From Escherichia coli (GTDB lineage Bacteria; Pseudomonadota; Gammaproteobacteria; Enterobacterales; Enterobacteriaceae), in the NCBI RefSeq assembly GCF_048403405.1, contig NZ_CP183129.1: a stretch of DNA of 64,000 nucleotides; one strand, given 5' to 3'. Under the pieces are notes generated by a model. That model searched no databases. It had not been told where the DNA came from and worked only from the letters and a program-made list of their open reading frames with translations. Of this stretch, positions 17,801 to 33,165 are shown piece after piece; the first letter of the stretch is position 1; every line of letters begins with the position of its first letter. Made by a program: the position numbers and the translations under genes.

Positions 17801-17880
17801 ATAAAAAAGGCGCTTCCCCATGCCGAGTAGCGCCTTTTTAATCAAGCATTTAGCTAACCTGAATTAGTTCATGCCGTATT
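17801..17880. repeat. attL: 80-bp direct repeat (partner 33086-33165) with a duplicated fis 3' end and terminator
   Basis: Identical base-for-base to 33086-33165. It contains the reverse complement of the last 17 nt of fis (TTAGTTCATGCCGTATT) and the fis terminator hairpin. Confidence 0.9.
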
Positions 17881-18007: not shown

Positions 18008-18029
18008 TGTGCAGTCAGTGGTGCAGTCA
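18008..18029 (+). repeat. 22-nt repeat TGTGCAGTCAGTGGTGCAGTCA (candidate integrase arm-type site; partner 33059-33080)
   Basis: An exact second copy in the same orientation lies just inside the other island end. It is internally a tandem GTGCAGTCA(G) duplication. Confidence 0.55.
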
Positions 18030-18055
18030 GTTTTCAATATGAATTAAGGTTTTCT

Positions 18056-19279
18056 ATGGCTGGAGGAACGAACAAATTAAGCGATACATCGTTGCGTAAG
18101 ATGCTGGGGAGGGAAATCGATAGAGATAGATTTTATGCTGACGGTGATGGATTGAGTATCAAGGTGTCAAAAATTGGCGTTCTTACTTGGTATTTCTCTT
18201 TCCGGATTGGTGGGCGTGAATCGTATTCACAGCGTGTTAAGCTTGGAAACTACCCGGATCTTTCTCTGAAAGCTGCGCGCGAGAAACGTGAACAGTGTCG
18301 AGCATGGCTTGCTGAAGGTAAAAATCCAAAGCATCGGTTAAATGTGGCAATACATGAAACACTCAAACCAGTGACGGTAAAAGAGGCTCTGGATTACTGG
18401 ATCAGAGAATACGCCGTTTACAAGCGCACGAATGTTGATAAACACATTGAGCAACTGAGGAAGCATATTTTCCCCTATATAGGTGATTATCCGTTATCAA
18501 TGTGCGAAACCCGGCATTGGCTGGAGTGTTTCGCTAGAGTAAGGAATGACGCTCCAGTGGCAGCTGGTTATTTGCTGCAGATGTGTAAGCAGGCTCTGAA
18601 GTTTTGCCGCGTACATCGTTATGCGGTTAGCAATGCTCTGGATGACCTGACTATCGATGATGTTGGTAGAAAACAGAATAAGCGCGATAGGGAACACAGC
18701 AGTCAAGAGTTAGCAGATATTTGGCAGGAATGTTCAGGTAAGAAATTTAAACCATACTATTCATCGTTGTTGCGTCTATTGGTGGTGTTTGGATGTCGAA
18801 CCCAGGAGCTTCGGTTGTCACGTATTACAGAGTGGGATTTAAAGGATTGGATCTGGACAGTGCCTAAAGAACACAGCAAAGGCGGAGAGAAGATATTGCG
18901 CCCTATTCCAGTGGTAATACGCCCATTCATCCAACAGCTTATAGAGCAACACAAAAACTCAGGTCTTTTGTTGGGTGAAATAAAGAAACCAGAAGCTGTC
19001 AGCCAATGGGGGAGGATGATATATAAGCGTCTGGGGCATATTGAATCGTGGACACTTCACGACCTGCGCAGGACGTTTGCTACCACACTAAATAACATGG
19101 GGGTTGCACCACATGTTGTTGAACAGCTTCTCGGTCACACATTAGGTGGTGTAATGGCCATATACAATCGTAGCCAGTACTTACCAGAAAAACTAGACGC
19201 TCTAAATAAATGGATGGAACGGCTTGAGGTTATTTCTGGTCAGTATTCAAATGTAAAAATATTGAAGGTAGCGAAATGA
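18056..19279 (+). CDS. int: P4-family tyrosine integrase
   Basis: N-terminal P4-int-type arm-binding region (LSDTSLRKM...DGDGLSIKVSK.G..TWYFSFR) and C-terminal catalytic residues (HDLRRTFAT...LLGH...AIYNRSQY). The start is set at MAGGTNK, which has an AAGG SD. Confidence 0.93.
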   Translation: MAGGTNKLSDTSLRKMLGREIDRDRFYADGDGLSIKVSKIGVLTWYFSFRIGGRESYSQRVKLGNYPDLSLKAAREKREQCRAWLAEGKNPKHRLNVAIHETLKPVTVKEALDYWIREYAVYKRTNVDKHIEQLRKHIFPYIGDYPLSMCETRHWLECFARVRNDAPVAAGYLLQMCKQALKFCRVHRYAVSNALDDLTIDDVGRKQNKRDREHSSQELADIWQECSGKKFKPYYSSLLRLLVVFGCRTQELRLSRITEWDLKDWIWTVPKEHSKGGEKILRPIPVVIRPFIQQLIEQHKNSGLLLGEIKKPEAVSQWGRMIYKRLGHIESWTLHDLRRTFATTLNNMGVAPHVVEQLLGHTLGGVMAIYNRSQYLPEKLDALNKWMERLEVISGQYSNVKILKVAK

Positions 19280-20013
19280 AAAAGATAAGCATCCCTGAGC
19301 GTATATATTATCCATTGCCTGAAGCAGCAAAGAAGCTGGGATGTACGCTTAATGATATATATCATTTTGCTGCTATAGGTGCTTTGAATATTTCTGTTTA
19401 TTTTCCAAACTGTCATCCATGTAAATCGCTAGTTATACCAAAATCATTAGTTGAAAATATTGATGTTGATTCAGGTGGGATGTTGCAAGGGGATCGCTGG
19501 GTAATTACAGGGATGAAGCCTGTTGGTAGCGATTTTGAATGGGTAAATTATTTTGGTGTGGCTTCTTATCTTGCAAAGAATTTTTGCGGTTTCTTCTATC
19601 TAAATCGGGAAAGTTTTTCTGAACTTGAATTTATTGGCAATGATGCAAGGATAGTATCATCTTTTTTTTCAACTCGTCCTGAATCAGAAAACTGGGAATG
19701 TCAAATTATGAGTGATGGGGCTATTGAGATCGACAGAAGGTTTTTATGTGTAATGGCTAAGGATTTGGAGCATATCAAAGATGTTGGAACCATGCCTGGA
19801 AGAAAAATGGGAGAATCGCCAAAAACTCTTGCGAAGAAAGCTGAGTTGATCCCTGCATTAATCAAACTAATTCCAGAAATGGATGATATAGATATTGGAA
19901 CTGCTCCAGTTGCTAAAGTGATCGCTGTTTTAGAGGCTGCGGCAGCGATGAAAGGGGTGTTTCTTCCCGCAACAGATAAGAATACGTGGGCTAAATACTT
20001 AGGGCGAACGTGA
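19276..20013 (+). CDS. hypothetical protein with an N-terminal AlpA/MerR-like HTH, translationally coupled to int
   Basis: 245 aa. Its ATG overlaps the int stop (ATGA). The N-terminus YYPLPEAAKKLGCTLNDIYHFAAIG resembles an excisionase-type HTH. The C-terminal ~190 aa are not recognised, and the gene is AT-rich. Confidence 0.6.
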   Translation: MKKISIPERIYYPLPEAAKKLGCTLNDIYHFAAIGALNISVYFPNCHPCKSLVIPKSLVENIDVDSGGMLQGDRWVITGMKPVGSDFEWVNYFGVASYLAKNFCGFFYLNRESFSELEFIGNDARIVSSFFSTRPESENWECQIMSDGAIEIDRRFLCVMAKDLEHIKDVGTMPGRKMGESPKTLAKKAELIPALIKLIPEMDDIDIGTAPVAKVIAVLEAAAAMKGVFLPATDKNTWAKYLGRT

Positions 20014-20102: not shown

Positions 20103-20324
20103 ATGAGCAAAGTTAAATCATCGCAAGACCAATTTGATCGCATCATTCGTGAGGAGGAATGCCGACGCCTTACCGGTATTTGCCGAACGACGCGTTATAT
20201 GATGGAAAGGAAAGGGGTGTTTCCAGCCCGTCGTCAGTTGGGGGCTCGTTCTGTCGGTTGGTTGCTGTCTGAGGTTAATGATTGGCTTGAACGTCAACCC
20301 AAAGCACAACTGAAATCGGCGTAA
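20103..20324 (+). CDS. alpA: AlpA-family transcriptional activator / excisionase
   Basis: 73 aa from the internal Met. RIIREEECRRLTGICRTTRYMMERKGVFPARRQLGARSVGWLLSEVNDWL matches the AlpA (HTH_17) pattern. Confidence 0.85.
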   Translation: MSKVKSSQDQFDRIIREEECRRLTGICRTTRYMMERKGVFPARRQLGARSVGWLLSEVNDWLERQPKAQLKSA

Positions 20325-20673: not shown

Positions 20674-20979
20674 CTATTCCTGCCCTTTGACCTTGCGTCG
20701 CTGGAGTTCTTCACGCGCGACGGTGACGAGTTGCCCGATCTCCTCGGCGGCTTTGACTCCGATTTTTTCAACCTGCGCTAGGGCATCGAGCGAAGAAACC
20801 AGGAGGTTTTCTCCGCTTCCTTCTGCCTGGCGGCGGGCGATTTCACCGCGCATGGCGGTTACTATGAATCCGGCGTTGCTTTCACCGTCCAGTTTTACGG
20901 ATTCCATGCCTTCAATAACATCATGCGGGATCCGAGCTGTCAGTGATTGTGATTTTGCGTTTTTTGAACCTGTAGCCAT
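20674..20979 (-). CDS. ribbon-helix-helix (Arc/CopG-like) DNA-binding protein, candidate island repressor
   Basis: 101 aa from MATGSKNAKSQSLTARIPHDVIEGMESVKL..., with the SD GAGAGGA 6 nt upstream. The pattern is an N-terminal beta-strand and two helices typical of RHH, with a coiled C-terminus. Confidence 0.6.
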   Translation of the reverse strand: MATGSKNAKSQSLTARIPHDVIEGMESVKLDGESNAGFIVTAMRGEIARRQAEGSGENLLVSSLDALAQVEKIGVKAAEEIGQLVTVAREELQRRKVKGQE

Positions 20980-21175: not shown

Positions 21176-21379
21176 ATGAGAAATCATACCATACACCCGC
21201 AAGGGCGGGACTCGTACAACCTGAATAAATACATCTGGCGTTTTATCGCCCTGAGCACCGCACAACCGCGCGTGATTCACATCGTGGCCACCAGCGAACA
21301 GGAAGCACGCCAGCAATCCCCGGCTGGCTGCGTGATGGTATTCGCCGCCCGCATTCGTCAGGGGGGGTGCCATGCCTGA
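21176..21379 (+). CDS. Icd-like (host cell division inhibitor-like) small protein
   Basis: 67 aa: MRNHTIHPQGRDSYNLNKYIWRFIALSTAQPRVIHIVATSEQEARQQSPAGCVMVFAARIRQGG. The '..F.A.....P.V...VA.SE.EAR....G....FAARI' pattern matches proteins I recall being annotated Icd-like in P4-like elements. A GAGG SD is present. Confidence 0.6.
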   Translation: MRNHTIHPQGRDSYNLNKYIWRFIALSTAQPRVIHIVATSEQEARQQSPAGCVMVFAARIRQGGCHA

Positions 21380-21692
21380 TATGTCAAATTACCAGTACCT
21401 GATTAATCCGCATTTTAACTGTGAGCATGATATTGCTAAAAAGGTTTATTCCGCTGCGGATGGGGCTACTGACAATATATCAATGGCTGTTGCGTCAATT
21501 GGTAGCCTGATGTGGCATGCGTCAGAAAATGAGGAATATGACGCAAAGGCCATGCGCATTGATATGGGTAATATCGGTTTGTTACTGGCAATGCTTGGAC
21601 ATTTTGATATTTCGTTACGGTGCACCATTGAAAATGCCACAGATGCATTAAATGCCATAAAGAAAGCGAATACTGATTCAAATCGGGGATAA
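21372..21692 (+). CDS. hypothetical protein
   Basis: 106-aa ORF whose start overlaps the preceding stop (operon-like). No recognisable motif. Confidence 0.5.
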   Translation: MPDMSNYQYLINPHFNCEHDIAKKVYSAADGATDNISMAVASIGSLMWHASENEEYDAKAMRIDMGNIGLLLAMLGHFDISLRCTIENATDALNAIKKANTDSNRG

Positions 21693-21698
21693 ATAATC

Positions 21699-21998
21699 AT
21701 GAGAACATATTTATCTGGCTTGACTGCCAGCGGTTATGCACACCCTAAAATTATCCCCGGCGCTATTTATCTGGATAAGAACGGTAACAGAGTAACGGTA
21801 AAAGAACTGATGTTTGACCGTGTTTATTTTATTCGTGATGGCTATTCATTTCATAGTTCGCTGAACGTGGAGATCTTTATTTGCAGATTCCGGCGGGAAA
21901 TCCCGCTTTCCAGAAATAACCATGTGTCATGTATGGATGTTGATAAAAAACTACAGGAACTGAAAAACATGATTGCCGCGTGGAGAGAGCAGAAATGA
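21699..21998 (+). CDS. hypothetical protein
   Basis: 99-aa ORF whose stop overlaps the primase start (ATGA). No confident family assignment. Confidence 0.5.
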   Translation: MRTYLSGLTASGYAHPKIIPGAIYLDKNGNRVTVKELMFDRVYFIRDGYSFHSSLNVEIFICRFRREIPLSRNNHVSCMDVDKKLQELKNMIAAWREQK

Positions 21999-23812
21999 AA
22001 AAAGCGCCAAATTTAAAACACCAGCCGCGTGACAAAATGACGGAAGTCATCATTTTTGCGGGTAGTGATGCGTGGGCACATGCGAAGCAGTGGCAGGAAC
22101 AGGACGGGCGACTGGCAGGCGATAACGTGCCACCTGTCTGGCTTGGAGAGCAACAACTTGCCGAACTGGACAACCTGCAAATTGTACCGGACGGACGCTA
22201 TCGCGTGCGTCTCTATCAGGCGGGGTTATTGCGTCCGGGGCTTGTTAATACCATCGGGCAGAAACTGGCAGCGGCAGGTGTCAGGGATGCTGATTATTAC
22301 CCTGAAGGAATGCACAGCCAGAAACGGGAGAACTGGCGCGAATATCTGGAACGTGAGCGGGGAGAGCTGGCGGAAAAGAAAAAGGTAGTTGAACTGCCTG
22401 TAAAGAAAAAAGAGCGGGTAAAAGACGATAACGCTTCATCACTGGCGCTTAACCAGATGGGAGCAAGTCAACGCGGCGAAGTTCTCCTGGCACATTATGG
22501 CGGTGAACTGGCGATTCATGCCGACTCTGACACTGTTCACCATTACAACGGCGTTGTATGGGAGCCAGTACAGGATAAAGAATTACAGCGAGCTATGGCG
22601 CAGATTTTCATTGATGCGGAGATCAGCTATTCGCAGAACGCCATTAAATCGGCGGTCGATACCATGAAGTTAAGTTTGCCTGTAATGGGGAATACAGCCC
22701 GTAACCTGATTGGATTCAGTAACGGGGTATTTGATACCAGAACAGGTAATTTTCGGGAGCATAACAAAAACGACTGGTTGTTAATTGCCAGTGAATTACC
22801 TTTCAGCCCACCAGCAGAGGGGGAAACGCTGGCAACACATGCGCCGAATTTCTGGAAGTGGTTACGCCGTTCGGTGGCTGAGAATGACCGCAAGGCGGAT
22901 CGCGTACTGGCGGCATTATTCATGGTGCTGGCGAACCGGTACGACTGGCAGTTATTCATTGAGGTAACAGGTCCAGGGGGAAGTGGTAAAAGCGTGATGG
23001 CGGAGATTTGCACCATGCTGGCGGGTAAGGCTAATACAGTATCAGCAAGCATGAAGGCGCTGGAAGATGCAAGGGAACGTGCGTTAGTGGTTGGCTTTTC
23101 TCTGATTATCATGCCGGATATGACCCGCTACGCTGGTGATGGGGCAGGGATTAAGGCCATTACAGGCGGTGACAAGGTGGCAATTGACCCGAAACACAAA
23201 GCTCCCTACTCAACGCGTATTCCGGCAGTAGTGCTGGCGGTTAACAATAACGCCATGTCATTCAGTGACCGCAGCGGGGGGATCTCACGTCGTCGGGTGA
23301 TATTCAATTTTTCGGAAGTTGTACCGGAGAACGAACGTGATCCGATGCTGGCGGAAAAAATAGAAGGTGAGCTGGCGGTAGTGATTCGCCATCTGCTTAC
23401 ACGGTTTGCTAACCAGGACGAAGCCAGACGCCTGTTATATGAGCAGCAGAAATCTGAAGAAGCACTGGCGATAAAGCGAGAGGGGGATTCGCTGGTGGAC
23501 TTCTGCGGCTATCTCATGGCGTCGGTAATGTGTGATGGCCTGTTAGTGGGTAATGCTGAAATTGTGCCATTCAGCCCGCGCAGATATCTCTATCATGCCT
23601 ATCTGGCTTATATGAGGGCACATGGGTTTGGTAAACCTGTAACACTGACGCGCTTCGGTAAAGATATGCCGGGGGCAATGGCGGAATATGGCAGGGAGTA
23701 TATGAAACGGAAAACGAAGCACGGTTTGCGTTCAAACGTGACACTGACGGAGGAATCAGAAGACTGGATGCCATCATGTGTATCGGTCACTAATGACGAT
23801 AGCAAAAATTAA
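21995..23812 (+). CDS. P4-alpha-type primase / SF3 (D5-like) replicative helicase (pri-rep)
   Basis: Walker A VTGPGGSGKS and the downstream ITGGDKVAIDPKHKAPY...RRRVIFNF pattern of the 'phage/plasmid primase, P4 family, C-terminal domain'. The iteron origin lies immediately 3'. Confidence 0.88.
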   Translation: MKKAPNLKHQPRDKMTEVIIFAGSDAWAHAKQWQEQDGRLAGDNVPPVWLGEQQLAELDNLQIVPDGRYRVRLYQAGLLRPGLVNTIGQKLAAAGVRDADYYPEGMHSQKRENWREYLERERGELAEKKKVVELPVKKKERVKDDNASSLALNQMGASQRGEVLLAHYGGELAIHADSDTVHHYNGVVWEPVQDKELQRAMAQIFIDAEISYSQNAIKSAVDTMKLSLPVMGNTARNLIGFSNGVFDTRTGNFREHNKNDWLLIASELPFSPPAEGETLATHAPNFWKWLRRSVAENDRKADRVLAALFMVLANRYDWQLFIEVTGPGGSGKSVMAEICTMLAGKANTVSASMKALEDARERALVVGFSLIIMPDMTRYAGDGAGIKAITGGDKVAIDPKHKAPYSTRIPAVVLAVNNNAMSFSDRSGGISRRRVIFNFSEVVPENERDPMLAEKIEGELAVVIRHLLTRFANQDEARRLLYEQQKSEEALAIKREGDSLVDFCGYLMASVMCDGLLVGNAEIVPFSPRRYLYHAYLAYMRAHGFGKPVTLTRFGKDMPGAMAEYGREYMKRKTKHGLRSNVTLTEESEDWMPSCVSVTNDDSKN

Positions 23813-23824: not shown

Positions 23825-24049
23825 ACTGTTCACCACTGTTCACCCTGTCATAAATATCTTTTATATCAGTATATTATAGGGTTAACAGTTATTTATGAAC
23901 TGTTCACCAAACTATTCACTGTTCACCTTTTTGATTGTTTATTGAGCTTCAAGGGTGAACAGTGGTGAACAGTTGGTGAATAGTTTTTGTGAAACTGTTC
24001 ACCCCTTAACCTTATGAATTAAAAGATAAAATATCAAAAGGTGAACAGG
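23825..24049. repeat. replication-origin iterons: ACTGTTCACC decamers in both orientations around AT-rich spacers
   Basis: Direct copies at 23825, 23835, 23899, 23918 and 23994. Inverted copies (GGTGAACAGT) at 23954, 23964 and 24040 (9/10 match). Degenerate copies at 23911 and 23975. Confidence 0.75.
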
Positions 24050-24196: not shown

Positions 24197-24457
24197 ATGC
24201 CGATTCTGACGCATGAAATAAACAATTATTTTGATCAATTCGGACTTCATGATATTGCTTCAATGCCTACCACTCAGTACCGTCAGGCCCTTGCAAATGG
24301 TGGTTTACTGTGGATTGATCATCATGATTTTATTCGTAGCACGCTATCAGATGAAATCCTTGCAACAAATCAAGAGCAGGTTAATGTTTTGATTGAGCAT
24401 TTGCAGGTTTTAAGGAAAAAAATGCCACTACCTCCTAATTGGATGAGTGAGAAATGA
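24197..24457 (+). CDS. hypothetical protein (86 aa)
   Basis: AGGAAG SD before the ATG. AT-rich, no recognisable motif. Ends at the shared hairpin terminator. Confidence 0.5.
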   Translation: MPILTHEINNYFDQFGLHDIASMPTTQYRQALANGGLLWIDHHDFIRSTLSDEILATNQEQVNVLIEHLQVLRKKMPLPPNWMSEK

Positions 24458-24491: not shown

Positions 24492-25001
24492 TCAAAGCAT
24501 TGTTAACAAGGCGGACGCACCAGCACCAACGAGACTGGCTACCGTACTATTATTTAGTAAATCCTTAAGCAAATTTTTTGCCTGAGGATCTTGTGATTGA
24601 GAAACTTTTTCAACAAGTTCAGTTATGCTGAGATTTACAATAAGATTGTTATGCTCACCGAGTTGAACCTGTGTACCGGATATGTTACCAATGTTAAATG
24701 TATTTTGGCTAGATTGTTTTGGTTTATGTTCATTAGCAGTCAGATTCTCGACTTTTAATGTAAGCATGTGAGGGTGATTAGTACCAACATTGAGTGTACC
24801 TCCTGGTAAAAATGACATATCAATTACTTTTAATATTATTTCCCCCTTCCCTAGTTTTTGAGTGATTTCATCTCCAATATTAATATCTGGTTCTTCAGTA
24901 TAAGGGATTAGCACTTTTTTTTCAGCTGAGTTTCTTTTCCCCTTGTATTCAACTCCTGCGATTGTGAATTTTTCTGGATATGCCATGACGTTAAGATCCA
25001 T
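24492..25001 (-). CDS. hypothetical 169-aa protein: beta-rich N-domain, RHIM-like 'FNIGNISGTQVQLGEHNN' module, hydrophobic Gly/Ala-rich C-tail (candidate effector)
   Basis: Strong SD GAGGAG 7 nt upstream, 29 nt after the upstream gene's stop. The C-terminus is STVASLVGAGASALLTML. The motif translation was checked by hand against the DNA at about 24636-24707. Confidence 0.7.
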   Translation of the reverse strand: MDLNVMAYPEKFTIAGVEYKGKRNSAEKKVLIPYTEEPDINIGDEITQKLGKGEIILKVIDMSFLPGGTLNVGTNHPHMLTLKVENLTANEHKPKQSSQNTFNIGNISGTQVQLGEHNNLIVNLSITELVEKVSQSQDPQAKNLLKDLLNNSTVASLVGAGASALLTML

Positions 25002-25030
25002 TATGTTGCTCCTCGTGATCGCTTTTGCGT

Positions 25031-25807
25031 TTAACTAGTAGATTTGAAAGTGTATTTTGTCTGTGTGTTAAGGTTTGATATTAGAGCTTCATAGTTTTCT
25101 TTACTCAGTAAGTTTTTTGAGTAGGCCTTCTTAAGAAGGTTTTTTGAGAGAGTAATAATTTCTTTTTCACCAGTTGATGCAATTTTTGAGAAGAACTCAG
25201 AGAGCTCTTGTATATTAATATTGTTATTTGTACCAAGTTGTACGTATTGGCTATTTACAGTAGCTATGTTGAATATGTTTTGTTTTGGATGCGTTTTTTT
25301 TAGCTTTTCAATTTCAGCATGTTCTATGATTTTTTGAGAGATACTTTCAATATAACCACTAACGTCTTTTTTTTCTGGGAAGGAAAACCCATCACCTCTT
25401 AATATTTTATCTGTTTCGGCCATTTCATAGTAAAGCCTGCGAATCATCACAAGTAATAGTAATTTAGCCTCCTCGATTGACTCCTCTATTGAGAATTGAC
25501 ATTCAATTGCTAACGCGGAGGTCTGCTCTAAAACAATTTCTGAGTTATTTTCAATGTAAGGATTGATAAAACCATTCCAAAAAATTTGAACGGGAGTACC
25601 TTTAAATGCCAAACCTTGATAGCATATTTCTGTTCCATCATATGCAGTAACTTTCATGGGGGGGCCTGCATTGAAAAATCGCCATCTATGAATCAGTTTG
25701 GTTAATCTTTCGTCAATCTCCCGAACTAATTTATAAGTCCTTTTGAACAATGGGGATGGTCGCATCCCAGGAACAGCAAGAATTTCTTTTGTCACTTGAA
25801 TCTCCAT
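25031..25807 (-). CDS. hypothetical 258-aa protein carrying the same 'FNIATVNSQYVQLGTNNN' module (candidate sensor/partner)
   Basis: Long ORF in an AT-rich segment and first gene of a two-gene operon. The motif was checked by hand against the DNA at about 25211-25282. No known catalytic motifs recognised. Confidence 0.65.
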   Translation of the reverse strand: MEIQVTKEILAVPGMRPSPLFKRTYKLVREIDERLTKLIHRWRFFNAGPPMKVTAYDGTEICYQGLAFKGTPVQIFWNGFINPYIENNSEIVLEQTSALAIECQFSIEESIEEAKLLLLVMIRRLYYEMAETDKILRGDGFSFPEKKDVSGYIESISQKIIEHAEIEKLKKTHPKQNIFNIATVNSQYVQLGTNNNINIQELSEFFSKIASTGEKEIITLSKNLLKKAYSKNLLSKENYEALISNLNTQTKYTFKSTS

Positions 25808-26054: not shown

Positions 26055-27224
26055 ATGAAGAAATTAATCGAGCTCCGCCAGCAAAAAAACGCCCTGAAAA
26101 ACCAGATGCGATCCCTGCTGGAAAAAGCCGACAGTGAAAACCGCAGCCTGAACGATGACGAGGGCAAACAGTTTGATGAACTGCGTGCAAAAGCTGATTC
26201 CCTCGATACAGACATTTCCCGCCTCGAGTCTGTGGCTGATGAAGAACGCAGCAAGCCAGGAACGGGCATCCAGAAAGTATCATCTGATGAATTGCGTAAC
26301 TACATCGTAACCGGAGATGTGCGATCTCTGTCCACCAGCACTGACAGCGGCAGGGATGGCGGATATACCGTAATTCCTGAGCTTGATCGCGAAGTCATGC
26401 GCCAGCTACAGGATGACAGTGTTATGCGCGTGATCGCGACCGTGAAGACTGCAAAATCAAATGAGTTTCAGAAACTGGTTTCCACTGGCGGCGCAACTGT
26501 AGGACGAGGCACAGAAGGCAGCGCACGCAGTGAAACCAACACCCCGAAAATTGAACGCGTAACCATCAAGCTGAACCCGATCTACGCCTACCCGAAAACC
26601 ACGCAGGAAATCCTAGATTTTTCAGAGGTGGATATTCTGGGCTGGTTATCCTCCGAAATTGCCGACACGTTCGCCAGCACCGAAGAGGATGATTTTGTTA
26701 ATGGCAACGGTAACGGCAAGCCGAAAGGCTTCATGGCTTACACCCGTGCGGCGACCAGTGACAAAACCCGCGCTTTTGGCACCATTGAAAAAATGGTAGC
26801 GGCAAGTGGAACCGCCATTACAGCGGACGAACTGATCGACATTCTCTACAAGCTGAAAGCGAAATACCGCAAAAATGCCGTCTGGGTGATGAACTCGGGC
26901 ACGGCAGGGACACTACAGAAGCTGAAAAATGAGAACGGCGATTATATCTGGCGCGACAGCCTTAAAGAAGGTGCGCCGGATATGTTGCTTGGTCGTCCTG
27001 TTTACTGCCTGGAGTCCATGCCGGACATCGGCGCAGGAAAAGCACCGCTAGCGGTTGGCGATTTCAGTCGTGGTTATTTCATCGTTGATCATGTAACAGG
27101 GATTCGCACCCGACCGGACAACATTACTGAACCCGGATTCTACAAGGTCCACACGGATAAATATCTGGGCGGTGGTGTGGTGGATTCAAACGCCATCAAA
27201 ATTCTGGAAATGAAAGCTGGCTAG
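26055..27224 (+). CDS. HK97-family major capsid protein
   Basis: 389 aa with an N-terminal coiled-coil delta/scaffold domain (MKKLIELRQQKNALKNQMRSLLEKAD...) followed by an HK97-fold-type sequence. Confidence 0.9.
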   Translation: MKKLIELRQQKNALKNQMRSLLEKADSENRSLNDDEGKQFDELRAKADSLDTDISRLESVADEERSKPGTGIQKVSSDELRNYIVTGDVRSLSTSTDSGRDGGYTVIPELDREVMRQLQDDSVMRVIATVKTAKSNEFQKLVSTGGATVGRGTEGSARSETNTPKIERVTIKLNPIYAYPKTTQEILDFSEVDILGWLSSEIADTFASTEEDDFVNGNGNGKPKGFMAYTRAATSDKTRAFGTIEKMVAASGTAITADELIDILYKLKAKYRKNAVWVMNSGTAGTLQKLKNENGDYIWRDSLKEGAPDMLLGRPVYCLESMPDIGAGKAPLAVGDFSRGYFIVDHVTGIRTRPDNITEPGFYKVHTDKYLGGGVVDSNAIKILEMKAG

Positions 27225-27237
27225 TCATGAGTAAGGA

Positions 27238-27258
27238 GGAGGCTGCGGCCTCCTTTTT
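27238..27258 (+). terminator. hairpin + T-run just after the capsid gene (candidate partial terminator/attenuator)
   Basis: GGAGGC tgcg GCCTCC TTTTT, located between the capsid stop and the protease start. Confidence 0.45.
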
Positions 27259-27278
27259 CAGCTTTATGGAGTACACCG

Positions 27279-27839
27279 ATGAAAAACACCGATTTTGAAA
27301 TCCGCACATCTGAACTGACCGCCAGCAATAAAAAGCTGGTGGGGTATGCCGTTCGCTGGAACAGCCTTTCAGAAATTATCTGGGACGAATTCCGCGAACA
27401 GTTCACGCCGGGGGCTTTTGCTGACTATCTGGCGGCGGGTAATGATGTGCGCTGCCTGTATGAGCATGACTATACCCAACTGCTGGGGCGCACCAAATCC
27501 GGCACTCTGGTACTGACTGAGGATAACACCGGGTTACGTTTTGAACTGACACCGCCGGATACCCAGCTTGGAAAAGATGTGCTTACGCTGGTGGAGCGTG
27601 GCGACATTACAGGAATGAGCTTTGGTTTTCGCGCATTATGCGAGGAGTGGAGTATCGCGCAAAAACCGTATTTGCGTACCGTAACCGCCGCTGAACTCCG
27701 TGAAATCACAATAACGTCGATGCCTGCTTATCCAGAATCTGGCGTGGAGATTGCCCACCGTTCGTTGTTTGCACAGCACCCTGAATTATGCCCGACAGGA
27801 AATAATCGTCATCGCTGGTCTGAGCTGGCGGGGTTGTGA
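27279..27839 (+). CDS. HK97-family prohead maturation protease
   Basis: 186 aa. The pattern GYAVRWN...FTPGAF...VRCLYEHD...LLGRT..GTL.L.ED..GL.F......T..G.D.L.L..RGD..GMSFGF matches the S78/U35 prohead protease family. Confidence 0.88.
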   Translation: MKNTDFEIRTSELTASNKKLVGYAVRWNSLSEIIWDEFREQFTPGAFADYLAAGNDVRCLYEHDYTQLLGRTKSGTLVLTEDNTGLRFELTPPDTQLGKDVLTLVERGDITGMSFGFRALCEEWSIAQKPYLRTVTAAELREITITSMPAYPESGVEIAHRSLFAQHPELCPTGNNRHRWSELAGL

Positions 27840-27840
27840 T

Positions 27841-29055
27841 ATGTGGTGGCCTTTTAGTCGTAAAAAAAGCGAGCAGCGTAACCTGTCCATTGATGATTTT
27901 CTGGCGCTGTCCGGCGTACCGAATACCGGATCCGGAGAATATGTTTCTGCCGGGACGGCTGAATCATTGCCTGCAGTGATGAATGCGGTTTCTGTCATCG
28001 CTGAGGCGGTGGCCACGATGCCGTGTTATCTGTATCTGGTACGTAATGACAAGGGCAGGGAGGCGCGGGAATGGCTGGACAGTCACCCGGTAGATATTCT
28101 GCTGAATGAGCAGCCTAATTCGTGCCAGACACCTTACCAGTTTAAACGCACAATGATGCGTCACTGCCTGCTGAACGGTAACGCCTATGCGGTTATTGAG
28201 TGGGGGCAGGACGGGCAGCCAAAATCACTTCATCCTTATGCGCCGGGGTGTGTTGTACCGGAACGCACAGGCGCACACAAATACCGCTATACCATCACCG
28301 AACCCTATACAGGAACGGTGCGCACGTATTTACAGGAAGAAGTTCTGCATCTCCGCTATGCCTCGGATGATGGCTTTCTGGGGCGCTCCCCCGTCACGAT
28401 TTGCCGTGAGGCACTTGGGCTTGGCCTTGCTCAACAGCGCCACGGAGCCAGCATTATGAAAGATGGCATGATGGCGGCAGGGATTATCACGTCAGGCGAA
28501 TGGCTGGACGGCGTGAAAGGTAAACAGGCATTGGATGCTCTGGAACGCTACAAGGGGGCGAAAAATGCCGGAAAAACGCCAATCCTTGAAGGGGGCATGG
28601 ATTACAGGCAACTGGGAATGAGTAACCAGGATGCGGAATGGCTGGCCTCCCGTCGCTTCTCCATTGAAGACATCGCCCGCATGTTCAACGTATCGCCTAT
28701 TTTTCTGCAGGAATACAGCAACAGCACCTACAGCAATTTCAGCGAGGCAAGCCGCGCGTTTCTGACCATGACAATGCGCCCGTGGCTGGCGAACTTCGAA
28801 CAGCAAATCAAGGCCGCTTTGCTGGTGGCTTCTCCCGTACCTGGTACCCGTTATCTGGTTGAGTTTGATTCAGCCGATTTATTACGCGCCACACCCACCG
28901 AACGTTATGCCACGTATGAGAAAGGGATTAAGAACGGGATCATGAATCCGAACGAAGCCCGTGAGCGTGAGGGTATGCCGCCGCGTGAAGGTGGTGATGA
29001 GTTCAGCCAGGCATGGAAACAGACTGTGGAAATTAAAGGGAGAAAAGATGAGTGA
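27841..29055 (+). CDS. HK97-family portal protein
   Basis: 404 aa from MWWPFSRKK, with the start abutting the protease stop. Portal-type sequence (NPNEARE..G.PP..GGD C-terminal region). Confidence 0.88.
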   Translation: MWWPFSRKKSEQRNLSIDDFLALSGVPNTGSGEYVSAGTAESLPAVMNAVSVIAEAVATMPCYLYLVRNDKGREAREWLDSHPVDILLNEQPNSCQTPYQFKRTMMRHCLLNGNAYAVIEWGQDGQPKSLHPYAPGCVVPERTGAHKYRYTITEPYTGTVRTYLQEEVLHLRYASDDGFLGRSPVTICREALGLGLAQQRHGASIMKDGMMAAGIITSGEWLDGVKGKQALDALERYKGAKNAGKTPILEGGMDYRQLGMSNQDAEWLASRRFSIEDIARMFNVSPIFLQEYSNSTYSNFSEASRAFLTMTMRPWLANFEQQIKAALLVASPVPGTRYLVEFDSADLLRATPTERYATYEKGIKNGIMNPNEAREREGMPPREGGDEFSQAWKQTVEIKGRKDE

Positions 29056-29350
29056 AGCCAGAATTACACCTGATGAAGTCAGGGCACATCTTCGACTTGA
29101 TGATGATTTATCCGGTGAAGGCGAACTTCTGAAAATGTATACCGATGCGGCGCTGGAAGCCTGCCAGAAGCATATCGGGAAACGTTTTGAAGACGGGCTG
29201 GAATTTACCCCGGCAATGCGTGTTGGTTGCCTGATGTACATCGCTTTCCTGTACGAGAACCGGGAAGCGGTTTCACCAGTGGAGCACTCGGAACTGCCTA
29301 TGGCTATTTCTGCGCTCTGGTCAGTTTATCGTGACGTAGGGGTGTACTGA
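29048..29350 (+). CDS. gp6-like head-tail connector (adaptor) protein
   Basis: 100 aa: MSEARITPDEVRAHLRLDDD...LLKMYTDAALEACQKHIG, a typical gp6-like/DNA-packaging-connector N-terminus. It overlaps the portal stop. Confidence 0.75.
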   Translation: MSEARITPDEVRAHLRLDDDLSGEGELLKMYTDAALEACQKHIGKRFEDGLEFTPAMRVGCLMYIAFLYENREAVSPVEHSELPMAISALWSVYRDVGVY

Positions 29351-29790
29351 TGCCGTGGCAACCATTAAGGCGATGCACTGAGCCTGGCTGTAATAAGCGC
29401 GTGAAGTCCGGCAAGTGTGAAGAGCACAGGCGGGCTGCATGGCGTGCAGAGGATGCCAGACGGGGACACCGCCGCGCGCGCGGGTATTCCCGACAGTGGG
29501 ACAAATACCGCGCCCTGTACCTGAGCAAAAACCCGTTATGCGTGCGTTGTCTGGCTAAGGGGATTTATACGCCAGCTCTTGTGGTGGATCACATCATTCC
29601 CATCAATGGCGGCGGTGATGTTCTCTTCTGGCCTGAGTGGAATCACCAGGCATTGTGCCAGACGTGCCACAACCGTAAGACGACACGGGAAGATCCAGCC
29701 ACGAAAGCAAACCGTAAAGCGGGCATGTATCACGAGCAGGAAGAACGGGCGGCACACCGTAACGACTGGATGTATGGCGATGATGACTGA
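29350..29790 (+). CDS. HNH endonuclease (packaging-associated)
   Basis: 146 aa with the HNH core VVDHIIPINGGGD...NHQALCQTCHNRKT and Cys-rich zinc motifs. It lies directly upstream of terS/terL, as in HK97-like cos phages. Confidence 0.88.
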   Translation: MPWQPLRRCTEPGCNKRVKSGKCEEHRRAAWRAEDARRGHRRARGYSRQWDKYRALYLSKNPLCVRCLAKGIYTPALVVDHIIPINGGGDVLFWPEWNHQALCQTCHNRKTTREDPATKANRKAGMYHEQEERAAHRNDWMYGDDD

Positions 29791-30078
29791 ACAGGAGCAA
29801 ACCAGGCTGATACGTGGACTGATAAGGCAGCGTGACACATGGAAGACACAGGAGACAGAGCACAAAGCCAACAGGACAGGGCGCACAAAACTCACCACAG
29901 CGAAGCGATTAACCGACCGTGACCGCGAGGTCATGGAATGTTTTCGCAATCGCTGGTGAGGCCGTCAGAGGGGGTGGGGGTGGTTTTCAGGACGAAACCG
30001 TCCCTGCCGGACACCGACCGCCCCCTCAAATTTTTGTGCACGGTAATTTTTTTGAAAATAATTGGGCGAAAAAAGAAC

Positions 30079-30435
30079 ATGGCAAGACCACCAAAAGCCC
30101 CCGCTTACCTGGATGAAATCGCGGTCAGGCAGTGGAAGGAAAAATCGCGCCAGCTTTCCGGGCGGGAAGACCTTACCCCCGCCGACTGGAGCAATCTGGA
30201 ACTGTATTGTGTTAACTACTCCATATACCGCAAAGCCGTCGAAGACCTTGCGACGCGCGGGTTCAGCATTGTTAACAGTCAGGGCAGCGAGAGCAGAAAC
30301 CCCGCACTGAGCGCAAAGGCTGACGCAGAAAGAATAATGATCAAAATGGCTTCTTTGCTGGGTTTTGACCCGGTAAGCCGTCGCAGAAATCCACCGGAAA
30401 CAGAGGAAGAGGACGAACTTGACCGCCTGGCATGA
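30079..30435 (+). CDS. terminase small subunit (P27 family)
   Basis: 118 aa from MARPPKAPAYLDEIAVRQWKE..., typical of the P27-family TerS N-terminus. The longer ORF-track start was rejected. Confidence 0.8.
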   Translation: MARPPKAPAYLDEIAVRQWKEKSRQLSGREDLTPADWSNLELYCVNYSIYRKAVEDLATRGFSIVNSQGSESRNPALSAKADAERIMIKMASLLGFDPVSRRRNPPETEEEDELDRLA

Positions 30436-32080
30436 GTACGCAGAAGGCGTAAAAAACGGCAAAATTACGGCCTGTAAACGACTGAAACAGGCCGTTAAAC
30501 GGTATTTTTCTGACCTTGAAAACTCCCTTTACACGTTCGATCCGGAGGTCGTGGAGCGGTTTATTGCCTTTTCCCGGGTGTGTCCGCACGTAAAAGGCGC
30601 AATGCGCGGTAGTCCCATTGAACTGGAGCCGTGGCAGCAGTTCGCCTTTGCCTGCATCCTGGGCTTTAAGGTTAAGGCCACCGGACGGCGCAAATACACC
30701 AGCGCATTCATTGAAGTACCGCGAAAAAATGCCAAATCCACGGTCGCCGCTATCCTGGCTAACTGGTTTCTGGTTATGGAAAACGGGCAGCAGGATATTT
30801 ACACCGCCGCCGTGAGTCGTGATCAGGCGCGGATCGTGTTTGATGATGCGCGTCAGATGTGCCTTTTATCCCGACCGTTACGAAAGCGGGTAAATATTCA
30901 GGCACACAAGGTGATACACCCGAAAACTAACAGCCTGTTAAAGCCACTGGCAGCAAAAGCGGCAACCATTGAAGGTACAAATCCGAGTCTTGCCATTGTG
31001 GATGAATATCACCTGCACCCTGACAACGGGGTTTATTCCGCACTTGAGCTGGGGATGGGGGCGCGTCCGGAGGGGCTGTTATTTGCCATCACCACATCGG
31101 GGAGCAACGTTGTTTCAGCCTGTAAACAACACTATGACTATTGCTGTCAGATACTGGATGGTGAAGAGATGAACGAATCCATGTTCGTTCTGATTTACGA
31201 GCTGGATGATGAAAGCGAGGTTGACGATCCGGCCATGTGGATAAAGGCGAATCCAAATATCGATGTTTCCGTCGATCGTGAAAAACTGGCCTCAACCATC
31301 CAGAAAGCGCGGGGTATTCCGTCGCAGTGGGTGGAAATGCTCACCAAGCGATTCAATATCTGGTGTCAGGGGGCTACGCCGTGGATGGGTAACGGTGCAT
31401 GGGCGGAGTGCGCCGGAACGTTCGCGGAGGCGGATTTATACGGGCAGGAGTGCTACGCGGGACTGGACTTATCATCAACCAGCGATATTTCCAGCGTGTG
31501 CTATGCCTTTCCGGTCGGTAAAAAGATTATGCTGGTTTCCCGTCACTATCTGCCGGAATTTCAGCTACAGAACCCCGCCAATAAAAACCGCGCCATCTAT
31601 CGCCAGTGGGTAAAGGCGGGCTGGATACGCACAACACCGGGTGACTGCATTGATTATGACCGTATCCGTGATGACATCATGGCGGATGCAGAGAATTTCA
31701 ATATCAGGCTGGTGGGCTTCGATACATGGAACGCCACGCACCTGAGGACGCAGCTACAGGGGGCAGGATTTGAGGTGGAGCCGTTCCCGCAAACATACCT
31801 TCGTTTCAGTCCGGCGGCGAAATCGTTCGAAGTTTTTGTTAACCGGAAGGTGATTGTGCATCGTGGTGATCCGGTGCTGGCCTGGTCAATGAGTAATGTT
31901 GTGATGCAGAGTGACGCGAACGCCAATATCAAGCCGAACAAGAAAAAATCATCCAACAAGATAGACCCGAGCGTTGCGGCGCTGATGGCGTTTGGCACAT
32001 TCCAGGCAGAGCATGAGGAATTTGCATTTGATATGAGCGACAGCCACAAAGAGCGACTTGCGGCGTTTGATGGGGTATGA
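30419..32080 (+). CDS. terminase large subunit
   Basis: 553 aa with a TTG start overlapping the terS end. It has an ATPase Walker-A-like VPRKNAKST and Walker B AIVDEYH, followed by a nuclease domain. Confidence 0.9.
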   Translation: MTAWHEYAEGVKNGKITACKRLKQAVKRYFSDLENSLYTFDPEVVERFIAFSRVCPHVKGAMRGSPIELEPWQQFAFACILGFKVKATGRRKYTSAFIEVPRKNAKSTVAAILANWFLVMENGQQDIYTAAVSRDQARIVFDDARQMCLLSRPLRKRVNIQAHKVIHPKTNSLLKPLAAKAATIEGTNPSLAIVDEYHLHPDNGVYSALELGMGARPEGLLFAITTSGSNVVSACKQHYDYCCQILDGEEMNESMFVLIYELDDESEVDDPAMWIKANPNIDVSVDREKLASTIQKARGIPSQWVEMLTKRFNIWCQGATPWMGNGAWAECAGTFAEADLYGQECYAGLDLSSTSDISSVCYAFPVGKKIMLVSRHYLPEFQLQNPANKNRAIYRQWVKAGWIRTTPGDCIDYDRIRDDIMADAENFNIRLVGFDTWNATHLRTQLQGAGFEVEPFPQTYLRFSPAAKSFEVFVNRKVIVHRGDPVLAWSMSNVVMQSDANANIKPNKKKSSNKIDPSVAALMAFGTFQAEHEEFAFDMSDSHKERLAAFDGV

Positions 32081-32367
32081 CGAGAATGACTGAAACTGAT
32101 CTACTAAAAATAATTCGCCGCATTACCGGAATCAGTCAGCAGCCTGACGAACAGGCTACACAGCCGGACAGCGTGATAGCCGAAAATTACGCGCGTGTGG
32201 TGGCTGAGGTGATGCGCCGTGACGGTATTGAGCTTAACGGCGTGGATATGCGCAACATACGAACCAGAGTCCTTGAGTTGCTGGCATACCGTCGCCGTTC
32301 TCAACAACGGAGGGAGAGCGCGAAAAATACTTACCAGTGGAAGAAGCCGGAACGACTGCGGCGGTAA
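32077..32367 (+). CDS. hypothetical protein (96 aa) coupled to terL
   Basis: Its start overlaps the terL stop (ATGA). Basic C-terminus. No family recognised. Confidence 0.45.
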   Translation: MTRMTETDLLKIIRRITGISQQPDEQATQPDSVIAENYARVVAEVMRRDGIELNGVDMRNIRTRVLELLAYRRRSQQRRESAKNTYQWKKPERLRR

Positions 32368-32432
32368 CTTGCTGATATTCCCGATAACGCAAAATTGCGT
32401 TGGCTGGCATAGTGCAAATTTGCACGATGACC
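32364..32432 (+). repeat. unit 1 of a paralogous ~70-nt element (TGATATTCCCGA ... GTTGGCTGG ... perfect palindrome)
   Basis: Shares GTAACT, TGATATTCCCGA and GTTGGCTGG at identical 26-nt spacing with unit 2. Contains ACGCAAaaTTGCGT and the perfect 14-bp palindrome GTGCAAATTTGCAC (32412-32425). Confidence 0.6.
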
Positions 32433-32667
32433 TAACCCATTGACTTTTCTTCAATCCTCAATTTTGAGGAGGCCGGAAGATAAAAAACTGTCAAAACTTG
32501 TCATGCAAAACGTTACCAGCACGGCTATTGATTTATTCGGCCCCTGCAACTGCTCCCAGAATGGTGGGGATCTGAAATCCGACCCTGAAAAAGTGCGCAA
32601 AAGTGGTACGCAAAAATTAGCGTCCAGCCACAGCCACCAGCTAGACAGAACGCCCAGAGCATTGTCA

Positions 32668-32740
32668 GTAACTGGTTGATATTCCCGACAGCCCCAAAAT
32701 GGGTTGGCTGGTGGGTGAGTTGCAGATCTGCAACTCGACC
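32668..32740 (+). repeat. unit 2 of the paralogous element
   Basis: Has the same conserved blocks as unit 1 and contains the perfect 16-bp palindrome GTTGCAGATCTGCAAC (32719-32734). Confidence 0.6.
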
Positions 32741-33058
32741 ATGAAACTACGGAAACTACCCGTAGTTTGGGTAGTAAGAGTAACACCCAGATTCTGGGGC
32801 TTACTCGCGATACCCAAATAAAGGGTATCGGTGGACGAAATATTATTTCTCATATGTGAGCACCGAAGGCGGAATTCCGCCCTCGGTTATCTATCATGCA
32901 CAGGGAGAAGCAGGGCAAAACTCTTGCCATGGCGTCTTCCGGACCGCTCACCACACCGTTTTTATCCCCATTAAAAATGAAAAAACACATCACTGCGGAG
33001 ACATAACCACTGGCAGGTATCTATTCTATTTATTATTGTTCGGTTTCGTTCGTGCTTA

Positions 33059-33080
33059 TGTGCAGTCAGTGGTGCAGTCA
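33059..33080 (+). repeat. second copy of the 22-nt TGTGCAGTCAGTGGTGCAGTCA repeat
   Basis: Identical to 18008-18029. It lies 5 nt inside the right-hand 80-bp att repeat. Confidence 0.55.
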
Positions 33081-33085
33081 TTTTA

Positions 33086-33165
33086 ATAAAAAAGGCGCTT
33101 CCCCATGCCGAGTAGCGCCTTTTTAATCAAGCATTTAGCTAACCTGAATTAGTTCATGCCGTATT
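33086..33165. repeat. attR: 80-bp direct repeat overlapping the 3' end of the intact fis gene and its terminator
   Basis: Identical to 17801-17880. Positions 33149-33165 are the last five sense codons plus the stop codon of fis. Confidence 0.9.

What the first reader, a model, noticed from the sequence alone, without database searches (positions are those of the whole stretch)
26055..32367. Complete HK97-type head and cos-packaging set but no tail, lysis or lysogeny genes: capsid-forming satellite architecture with a non-canonical gene order
Seen directly: the region encodes major capsid, prohead protease, portal, gp6-like connector, HNH, TerS (P27 family) and TerL. Most junctions overlap (translational coupling). 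No tail, tape-measure, holin/endolysin or CI/Cro-type genes occur anywhere between the att repeats, and the whole element is only ~15 kb. Together with int, alpA and a P4-type primase-helicase plus iterons, this matches what has been described as capsid-forming PICIs (satellites that build their own small capsids and hijack only helper tails). The order capsid-protease-portal-connector-HNH-terS-terL reverses the usual terS-terL-portal-protease-capsid order of HK97-like phages. Inference: the element depends on a helper phage for tails and lysis.
Basis: partly seen in the sequence, partly recalled or inferred. Interest (0 to 1): 0.6.

Follow-up and report, generated by a model that had tools for sequence, protein, structure and literature searches.

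The report
Capsid-forming phage satellite in E. coli
This is an ordinary member of an already described family of E. coli phage satellites that build their own small capsid and borrow only a helper phage's tail; its one unusual feature is that it lacks one of the family's two head-to-tail joining genes.

Summary
Window 26055-32367 encodes major capsid, prohead protease, portal, gp6-type connector, HNH, P27-type TerS and TerL. It sits in a 15.3-kb island bounded by perfect 80-nt repeats at the 3' end of fis. The island also carries int, alpA, a P4-type primase-helicase and iterons, and has no tail, lysis or repressor genes.

Every packaging gene has an ordered orthologue (56-93% aa) in the EcCIEDL933-type island. 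The capsid protein matches the solved EcCIEDL933 capsid, 9gyi, at E 8e-155.

Two corrections apply:
- **Gene order.** The "non-canonical" order is the published norm for proteobacterial cf-PICIs. I found it in all ~70 loci with the region intact, across about 25 genera.
- **Completeness.** The head set is not complete. The head-closure gene (Hc1, the papers' "adaptor") between portal and connector is absent. That makes 10 of SatelliteFinder's 11 core components.

The Hc1-less form is common: about 136 of 5,426 complete E. coli genomes and at least six integration sites. Its packaging genes are under purifying selection (dN/dS about 0.1). Similar losses recur in other genera.

Verdict: a new member of a known kind, of modest interest.

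The parts
17801..17880 (.). attL: left copy of the perfect 80-nt direct repeat. It duplicates the last codons of fis (YGMN-stop on the minus strand) and its terminator hairpin.
   Evidence: sequence read
18008..18033 (+). Tandem GTGCAGTCA repeat just upstream of int, repeated next to attR. Candidate integrase arm-type binding sites (inference).
   Evidence: (family D2)
18056..19279 (+). Tyrosine integrase (Arm-DNA-bind_3 and Phage_integrase domains); 54% aa identity to the integrase of the EcCIEDL933-type island
19276..20013 (+). Hypothetical protein, 245 aa, no family. Occupies the variable slot between int and alpA.
20103..20324 (+). AlpA-family regulator (PICI inducer/activator by analogy)
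20674..20979 (-). YlcI/YnfO family protein, divergently oriented
21176..21379 (+). Icd-like cell-division inhibitor homologue
21372..21692 (+). Hypothetical protein, 106 aa (PHROG 15327, function unknown)
21699..21998 (+). DUF4222 protein
21995..23812 (+). Primase-helicase (D5_N, DUF5906, Pox_D5; P4-family primase C-terminal domain)
23825..24049 (.). Iteron cluster: 10 copies of ACTGTTCACC in both orientations around an AT-rich core. Presumed replication origin.
24197..24457 (+). Hypothetical protein, 86 aa (PHROG 1957); 38% aa identity to the ORF preceding the capsid gene in the EcCIEDL933-type island
24492..25795 (-). Two antisense, low-GC (0.36) cargo genes, hyp169 and hyp254, in the variable slot before the packaging operon. 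Function unknown.
26055..27224 (+). HK97-fold major capsid protein; 63% aa identity to the EcCIEDL933-type capsid protein. Matches PDB 9gyi at E 8e-155.
27279..27839 (+). Prohead serine protease (Peptidase_S78)
27841..29055 (+). Portal protein; 81% aa identity to the prototype's portal. Its last ~10 residues fall inside the recombinant patch 29023-29147.
29048..29350 (+). gp6/Ad1-type head-tail connector (the papers' 'connector'), overlapping the portal stop by 8 nt. No Hc1 ('adaptor') gene lies between portal and connector.
29350..29790 (+). HNH endonuclease (packaging accessory, as in HK97-type cos phages)
29774..29959 (+). Conserved small ORF hyp61 (PHROG 3173); 75% aa identity to its counterpart in the EcCIEDL933-type island
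29960..30078 (.). Conserved non-coding block (GGGGTGGGGG...TTTCAGGAC...CCGCCCCCTCAAATTTTT.CGCACGG.ATTTTTTTGAAAATAA) upstream of terS. Candidate cos site (inference from conservation and position).
30079..30435 (+). Small terminase, P27 family (Terminase_4)
30419..32080 (+). Large terminase (ATPase and nuclease domains); 93% aa identity to the prototype's TerL
32086..32367 (+). Conserved terminal ORF hyp93 (PHROG 1561, function unknown). Also the last gene of classical PICIs.
32368..33085 (.). Gene-free right arm. Contains a 44-nt direct repeat (32364-32407 and 32668-32711) and the second GTGCAGTCA tandem (33059-33084).
33086..33165 (.). attR: right copy of the 80-nt repeat, overlapping the 3' end of fis (33149-33445, minus strand)

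Best explanation
The region is the packaging operon of a capsid-forming phage-inducible chromosomal island (cf-PICI) of the EcCIEDL933 family. The island is integrated by its own tyrosine integrase at the 3' end of fis in E. coli.

Likely life cycle, inferred by homology with EcCIEDL933 and not shown here:
1. A helper phage triggers alpA expression.
2. The island excises as a 15,285-bp circle.
3. It replicates from the iteron origin using its primase-helicase.
4. Its own capsid protein, protease and portal build a small (T=4-type) procapsid.
5. Its own TerS, TerL and HNH cut at a cos site in the conserved block just upstream of terS and package one unit.
6. The gp6/Ad1-type connector caps the portal.
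7. The helper supplies the tail and lysis.

This island belongs to a widespread sub-lineage that lacks the second neck gene (Hc1, head closure, the papers' 'adaptor'). It therefore probably takes Hc1 from the helper along with the tail, or joins tails without it.
For: Shown here:
- Pfam, PHROG and NCBIfam identities of all parts.
- Perfect 80-nt att repeats 15,285 nt apart.
- Iterons.
- Gene-for-gene colinearity with the O157:H7 (EcCIEDL933-type) island at 56-93% aa identity.
- The capsid protein matches the solved EcCIEDL933 capsid 9gyi at E 8e-155 over its full length.
- True phages reach only about 37% capsid identity. The nearest 'phage' records are a 3.8-kb fragment, the end of one 106-kb Klebsiella phage record, and two 15-16.5-kb records that look like cf-PICIs deposited as phages.
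- The same gene order holds in all ~70 intact loci among 80 from about 25 genera.
- A non-coding block upstream of terS is conserved from E. coli to Gilliamella.
- The Hc1-less module occurs in about 136 of 5,426 complete E. coli genomes, at the fis, rcnR/thiM, gcd/hpt, roxA/phoQ, clpS and comM-like sites and inside a prophage terL.
- The exact connector protein is indexed in 8,793 collection blocks.
- dN/dS is 0.08-0.10 among Hc1-less islands, with all ORFs intact.

From the literature:
- The cf-PICI definition and the experimental life cycle of EcCIEDL933 (10.1101/2022.09.08.507074).
- Tail-less capsids, and tail specificity set by adaptor plus connector (10.1101/2025.02.11.637232).
- SatelliteFinder accepts 9-11 of 11 core components (PMC10085698).
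Against: No experiment bears on this particular island: induction, capsid size, cos ends and helper identity are all inferred.

In EcCIEDL933, every packaging-module gene tested individually was needed for transfer, connectors included. An island lacking Hc1 could therefore be transfer-defective on its own.

No helper prophage is visible in the 64-kb window.

The cos assignment rests on conservation and position only.
Confidence: 0.9

Rival explanations
1. It is a cf-PICI by descent but is now transfer-defective. Loss of the Hc1/'adaptor' gene leaves heads that cannot retain DNA or bind tails, and the island persists only vertically.
For: Hc1 is absent from the island and from the whole window: an HMM built from 65 cf-PICI Hc1 sequences gives a best E-value of 1.8. 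In EcCIEDL933 all packaging-module genes were required for transfer. Adaptor plus connector determine tail compatibility.
Against: The Hc1-less module is found at six or more different chromosomal sites, combined with different int and replication modules. It occurs in about 136 complete E. coli genomes from human, pig, cattle, water and vegetable sources. dN/dS is about 0.1 and all ORFs are intact. Hc1-less arrangements recur independently in Xenorhabdus, Pantoea, Yersinia, Leclercia, Erwinia and Gilliamella. That pattern fits continued horizontal spread.
Confidence: 0.1
2. It is a deletion remnant of a full HK97-like temperate prophage that lost its tail, lysis and immunity genes.
For: All the structural genes are of phage type. 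PGAP simply calls them phage proteins.
Against: Islands with this module are uniformly about 14-15 kb and directly flanked by host genes at many sites. The left half is PICI-type: alpA, icd-like, DUF4222, primase, iterons. This int-alpA module occurs in only 18 genomes, in line with the 19 that carry the whole island. None of the 80+ related loci matches the HK97-type tail proteins of the L006 prophage, apart from that prophage itself, which merely flanks a cf-PICI. True phages reach at most 37% capsid identity and have the opposite gene order.
Confidence: 0.02
3. It is a classical (capsid-redirecting) PICI or a P4-like satellite that depends on the helper's capsid proteins.
For: It shares int, alpA, icd-like, DUF4222, primase and the terminal hyp93 gene with classical E. 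coli PICIs. The primase is of the P4 family.
Against: It encodes its own portal, protease, full-length capsid protein, connector and TerL. These are the components SatelliteFinder uses to exclude elements from the PICI model. No sid, psu, delta or epsilon-type genes were found among the annotated ORFs.
Confidence: 0.02

Closest known systems
EcCIEDL933 (prototype cf-PICI of E. coli O157:H7; compared here through the identical-type island in strain ATCC 43888, L003)
   Same: Similar size (15.3 vs 15.4 kb). Same order: int-alpA-...-primase-...-capsid-protease-portal-connector-HNH-small ORF-terS-terL-hyp93. Orthologues at 56-93% aa identity in the packaging block (TerL 93%, TerS 88%, HNH 84%, portal 81%, capsid 63%). 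The capsid protein aligns end to end with the solved T=4 capsid protein 9gyi, including the region of the 227-248 loop.
   Different: Lacks the 112-aa Hc1/'adaptor' gene between portal and connector. Different attachment site (fis 3' end vs roxA/phoQ). Integrase only 54% identical. D5_N/DUF5906 primase instead of a DUF927-type one. No ssb or perC genes; instead two antisense low-GC cargo genes.
E. coli CREC-2 island (L004) and KpCIDSM30104 / EcCIGN02175-type cf-PICIs
   Same: L004 is the closest Hc1-bearing relative. Its packaging DNA is 98.1% identical up to the portal 3' end and 94.8% identical from mid-connector onward. The literature shows that the adaptor/connector patch is the variable, tail-specifying region of otherwise near-identical cf-PICIs.
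   Different: In the window, a 125-nt patch (29023-29147) replaces 466 nt of L004: the portal C-terminal tail, Hc1 and the first ~33 codons of the connector. This is a replacement with a diverged connector N-terminus, not a clean deletion.
HK97-family temperate siphophages (HK97, HK022, HK106; the prophage in L006)
   Same: Same protein families for head and packaging, including the HNH-cos-TerS-TerL arrangement. These phages are the experimentally shown helpers of cf-PICIs.
   Different: Phage order is terS-terL-portal-protease-capsid-Ad1-Hc1-tail. The prophage's capsid, portal and TerL are only 30-36% identical to the island's. The island has no tail, lysis or immunity genes and is one third the size.
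Classical E. coli PICIs (EcCICFT073 type; L088 and L089 here)
   Same: Shared left-half architecture (int, alpA, icd-like, DUF4222, primase) and the same terminal hyp93 gene.
   Different: Classical PICIs lack portal, connector, HNH and TerL, and rely on helper capsid proteins.

Membership tests
cf-PICI (criteria of He et al. 2025, 10.1101/2025.02.11.637232, and SatelliteFinder, PMC10085698) | Size about 10-18 kb, bounded by att repeats | tested here: met
   80-nt perfect repeats 15,285 nt apart
cf-PICI | Integrase, regulator (AlpA) and primase-replicase module | tested here: met
   Pfam and NCBIfam hits; iteron origin
cf-PICI | Own major capsid protein, prohead protease and portal | tested here: met
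cf-PICI | Head-tail connector (gp6/Ad1 type) | tested here: met
   PF05135, PHROG 40, TIGR01560. The mapping to the papers' 'connector' was checked against KpCIDSM30104: 62.1% here vs 63% reported.
cf-PICI | Head-tail adaptor (Hc1 / head-closure type) | tested here: not met
   The portal stop overlaps the connector start. tblastn and an HMM of 65 cf-PICI Hc1 sequences find nothing in the window. The published classifier still admits elements with 9-10 of 11 components (Types B and C, 792 of 969 elements), so this does not exclude membership under that definition.
cf-PICI | HNH, TerS and TerL | tested here: met
cf-PICI | Conserved proteobacterial order: capsid-protease-portal-connectors, then hnh-terS-terL | tested here: met
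cf-PICI | No tail module and no lysis genes (forbidden components) | tested here: met
   No such family among the scanned ORFs or the 20 PGAP CDSs. No match to HK97-type tail proteins.
cf-PICI | Helper-phage induction through AlpA; small self-made capsids; transfer dependent on helper tails | not testable with these tools
   Needs induction and transfer assays and EM. Inferred from 63% capsid-protein identity to the structurally solved prototype.
Classical PICI | Absence of portal, head-tail connector/adaptor and TerL (forbidden in the PICI model) | tested here: not met
   Portal, connector and TerL are all present (model rules)
P4-like satellite | sid / psu / delta / epsilon hijacking genes alongside int, alpA and alpha primase | tested here: not met
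   Only int, alpA and a P4-family primase domain were found; no other P4 marker among the annotated ORFs
Intact HK97-like temperate prophage | Tail, lysis and immunity modules; genome about 35-45 kb | tested here: not met
   15.3 kb between att repeats, with none of these modules

The most novel reading that the evidence does not exclude
Hc1-less cf-PICIs are a functional sub-type that outsources head closure as well as the tail. Their DNA-filled heads are finished by the helper phage's own Hc1 (gp7-like) protein, or bind tails directly through a remodelled connector N-terminus. This would change which helpers can serve them, and whether they can persist as free tail-less capsids.

Circumstantial support:
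- cf-PICI Hc1 proteins are far closer to genuine phage Hc1 proteins (up to 68% identity, 267 phage records) than any other cf-PICI head protein is to its phage counterpart (at most 37%).
- One Hc1-less island sits inside a prophage whose Hc1 is 61% identical to a cf-PICI Hc1.
- Hc1 loss recurs in several genera.
Probability: 0.35. Interest if true: 0.5.

Novelty: new member of a known kind. Interest (0 to 1): 0.3.

Why it matters
cf-PICIs move DNA between enterobacterial species by making their own capsids and borrowing tails, so cataloguing them matters for tracking horizontal gene flow. This island adds little to that picture: the family, its gene order and its detection rules were published in 2022-2025, and identical copies are already in RefSeq.

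The one useful lead is the common Hc1-less lineage. The published experiments treat adaptor plus connector as the tail-specificity determinant and found every packaging gene essential in the prototype. A widespread natural variant without the adaptor is therefore a ready-made test of what the adaptor is needed for: DNA retention in free tail-less capsids, or tail docking.

Tried and rejected
- **Hidden or relocated Hc1.** I searched with tblastn using two Hc1 proteins, and with an HMM of 65 cf-PICI Hc1 sequences against all six-frame ORFs of the window. Nothing was found (best E 1.8). The small conserved ORFs hyp61 and hyp93 are not replacements, because Hc1-bearing islands have them too.
- **Simple deletion of Hc1.** Rejected. 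The boundary is a 125-nt replacement patch with a diverged connector N-terminus.
- **Single origin of all Hc1-less forms.** Rejected. The connector N-termini of Hc1-less loci resemble those of their own genus.
- **Defence-system cargo in hyp169/hyp254.** No hits in PADLOC, Pfam, NCBIfam or PDB.
- **Known RNA families in 15000-36000.** None at gathering thresholds.
- **Consensus promoter and terminator scan.** Not above shuffled expectation, so uninformative.
- **Published element tables.** SatelliteFinder's supplementary tables are not held as text, and the Alqurainy tables are images. I could not check whether this exact island is already listed.
- **EDL933 itself.** My one attempt to fetch its record failed on a range limit. 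I used O157:H7 ATCC 43888 as the EcCIEDL933-type reference; it has the same flanking genes and the same 385-aa capsid protein length as 9gyi.


Full report
**What is in the sequence.** The window is E. coli chromosome; flanking DNA matches 5,425 of 5,426 complete genomes. The connector is also PHROG 40 'head-tail adaptor Ad1' (2e-28) and TIGR01560. Two small conserved ORFs were not listed: hyp61 (29774-29959) and hyp93 (32086-32367). Of the eight junctions in the block, four overlap, two abut and two are gaps of 54 and 119 nt. TerS most likely starts at 30079 rather than 29938, because 29960-30078 behaves as conserved non-coding DNA.

**The element.** Perfect 80-nt direct repeats at 17801-17880 and 33086-33165 lie 15,285 nt apart. 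The repeat contains the last codons of fis, its stop codon and its terminator, so the island sits at the 3' end of fis, between fis and yhdJ.

- Left half: tyrosine integrase, AlpA, a YlcI/YnfO gene, an Icd-like gene, DUF4222 and a D5_N/DUF5906/Pox_D5 primase-helicase of the P4 family.
- Origin: ten ACTGTTCACC iterons in 23825-24049, immediately after the primase gene. Sixteen copies occur in the whole window against 3.4 expected.
- Cargo: two antisense, low-GC genes (24492-25795) fill the slot before the packaging operon.
- Absent: no ORF matches a tail, tape-measure, holin, endolysin or CI/Cro family. PGAP's annotation of a 100%-identical copy lists 20 CDSs with none of these.

**Comparison with the known family.** The founding cf-PICI paper describes EcCIEDL933 as a 15.4-kb island with int, alpA and rep plus capsid, protease, portal, head-tail connectors, HNH, TerS and TerL, and no tail genes. 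It states that proteobacterial cf-PICIs share the conserved order 'capsid-protease-portal-head connectors', then 'hnh-terS-terL' (10.1101/2022.09.08.507074).

- The EcCIEDL933-type island of O157:H7 (L003) is colinear with the window. Identities are TerL 93%, TerS 88%, HNH 84%, portal 81%, hyp61 and hyp93 75%, capsid 63%, protease 62%, connector 56%. These lie at or near the paper's stated 50-90% range for family members.
- The capsid protein matches PDB 9gyi, the 385-aa EcCIEDL933 major head protein, at E 8e-155 over its full length.
- True phages such as ST64B and SfI reach only about 37% capsid identity. The four closer 'phage' records (60-77% capsid identity) are a 3.8-kb fragment, the end of one 106-kb Klebsiella phage record, and two 15-16.5-kb records that look like cf-PICIs deposited as phages.
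- A portal-seeded scan of species-representative genomes returned 80 loci in about 25 genera. Every locus with the region intact shows the same order.

**The one real difference.** In the prototype and most relatives, a 112-aa gene lies between portal and connector. PGAP calls it 'phage head closure protein'; the cf-PICI papers call it the 'adaptor'. I confirmed that mapping using KpCIDSM30104 (L010, the K. pneumoniae type strain): 35.5% and 62.1% identity here, against the 35% and 63% reported.

In the window the portal stop overlaps the connector start by 8 nt, and the gene is absent. An HMM built from 65 cf-PICI Hc1 sequences finds nothing in the 64-kb window (best E 1.8).

Against the closest Hc1-bearing relative (L004; 98.1% DNA identity upstream and 94.8% downstream), a 125-nt patch (29023-29147) replaces 466 nt. 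The replaced stretch covers the portal C-terminal tail, Hc1 and the first ~33 connector codons. The island thus has 10 of SatelliteFinder's 11 core components. That is Type B, the commonest class (459 of 969 elements).

**Is the Hc1-less form alive?**

- *Frequency.* All listed E. coli hits at 95% identity or more to 28700-29500 are single-piece and annotated portal|connector|HNH. The identity bands put about 136 genomes in that class. Roughly 400 more-divergent relatives are two-piece matches, and those listed carry the head-closure gene.
- *Spread.* The Hc1-less module sits at the fis, rcnR/thiM, gcd/hpt, roxA/phoQ, clpS and comM-like sites and inside a prophage terL gene. It is combined with different integrases and with either D5_N- or DUF927-type replicases.
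- *Abundance.* The exact connector protein is indexed in 8,793 blocks of the assembly collection.
- *Selection.* Between Hc1-less islands, all packaging ORFs are intact and dN/dS is 0.08-0.10. A caveat is that mosaic recombination blurs when that divergence arose.
- *Recurrence.* About 10 of ~68 complete loci from other species also lack Hc1 at this position. Their connectors resemble those of their own genus, which indicates repeated loss.

This pattern fits an actively spreading element better than a dead one.

**Not a prophage remnant.**

- Related islands are uniformly about 14-15 kb and abut host genes.
- This int-alpA module occurs in only 18 complete genomes, in line with the 19 that hold the whole island at this site.
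- None of the related loci matches the HK97-type tail proteins of the L006 prophage. That prophage's own tail genes merely flank an inserted cf-PICI.

**Most likely mechanism.** Steps 1-4 are inferred by homology with EcCIEDL933; only the parts list is shown here.

1. A helper phage induces alpA. Int excises a 15,285-bp circle, and the primase-helicase replicates it from the iterons.
2. The island's own capsid protein, protease and portal build a small procapsid. The prototype's is T=4 and 47.5 nm.
3. TerS, TerL and HNH cut at a cos site and package one unit. The best cos candidate is the 119-nt non-coding block between hyp61 and terS, whose sequence is conserved from E. coli to Gilliamella.
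4. The Ad1-type connector binds the portal.
5. The helper provides the tail and lysis.

Because Hc1 is missing, the neck must be finished either by the helper's Hc1 or without one. It is suggestive that cf-PICI Hc1 proteins have many close homologues in genuine 30-59-kb phages: 267 records, up to 68% identity. The connector hits no full-length phage gene set: four of its five 'phage' matches are cf-PICI-like or fragmentary records, and the fifth is at the end of one 106-kb Klebsiella phage record. One Hc1-less island also lies inside a prophage whose Hc1 is 61% identical to a cf-PICI Hc1, although that prophage's capsid, portal and TerL are only 30-36% identical to the island's.

**Verdict.** The kind is already described and routinely detectable. 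This island is an uncharacterised but ordinary member. I found no mention of the Hc1-less sub-lineage in the paper texts available to me. It is a modest, testable lead rather than a new kind of system.

Noticed in passing
L006:1-17628 (E. coli EC416, NZ_AP027404.1): An Hc1-less cf-PICI of the same lineage appears to be inserted inside the terL gene of an HK97-like siphophage prophage. PGAP annotates terL as two partial fragments, at 1-940 and 16885-17628, on either side of the island. The prophage's own Hc1 is 61% identical to a cf-PICI Hc1. I did not find the att repeats of this insertion.
   Followed up: partly
window 32086-32367; L088:6977-7261; L089:7005-7286: The 93-aa terminal ORF (PHROG 1561, function unknown) is also the last gene of classical, non-capsid-forming E. 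coli PICIs. Roughly half of the 1,100 genomes that match the packaging region appear to match only this gene. It may be the 'hypothetical gene 1792' whose mutation reduced EcCIEDL933 transfer, but I could not verify the numbering.
   Followed up: partly
window 24492-25795 (minus strand): Two adjacent antisense genes (169 and 254 aa, GC 0.36) with a shared C-terminal PHROG 5789 region occupy the slot where cf-PICIs are said to carry immunity cargo. They have no hit in Pfam, NCBIfam, PADLOC or PDB.
   Followed up: partly
window 29960-30078 and homologous positions in L003-L071: A non-coding block upstream of terS is conserved across genera from E. coli to Gilliamella. It consists of a G-run / C-run inverted repeat followed by AAATTTTT.CGCACGG.ATTTTTTTGAAAATAA. 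It is a candidate cos site for the whole family.
   Followed up: partly
L061 and L062: 7993-8310 (Symbiopectobacterium sp. RP): A weak Hc1-like ORF (25% identity) lies after HNH instead of after portal. This suggests relocation rather than loss of the head-closure gene in that lineage.
   Followed up: no
L024-L087 (Xenorhabdus loci): Several Xenorhabdus genomes contribute three to six separate loci of this packaging module each (for example X. innexi, X. mauleonii, X. anantnagensis). That indicates unusually high cf-PICI copy number per genome, though some loci are contig fragments.
   Followed up: no
window 32364-32407 and 32668-32711: A 44-nt direct repeat (82% identical copies, 304 nt apart) lies in the gene-free right arm between hyp93 and attR. 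Its function is unknown.
   Followed up: no
window 18008-18033 and 33059-33084: A tandem GTGCAGTCA repeat is present just inside both att repeats. These are probably integrase arm-type binding sites.
   Followed up: no
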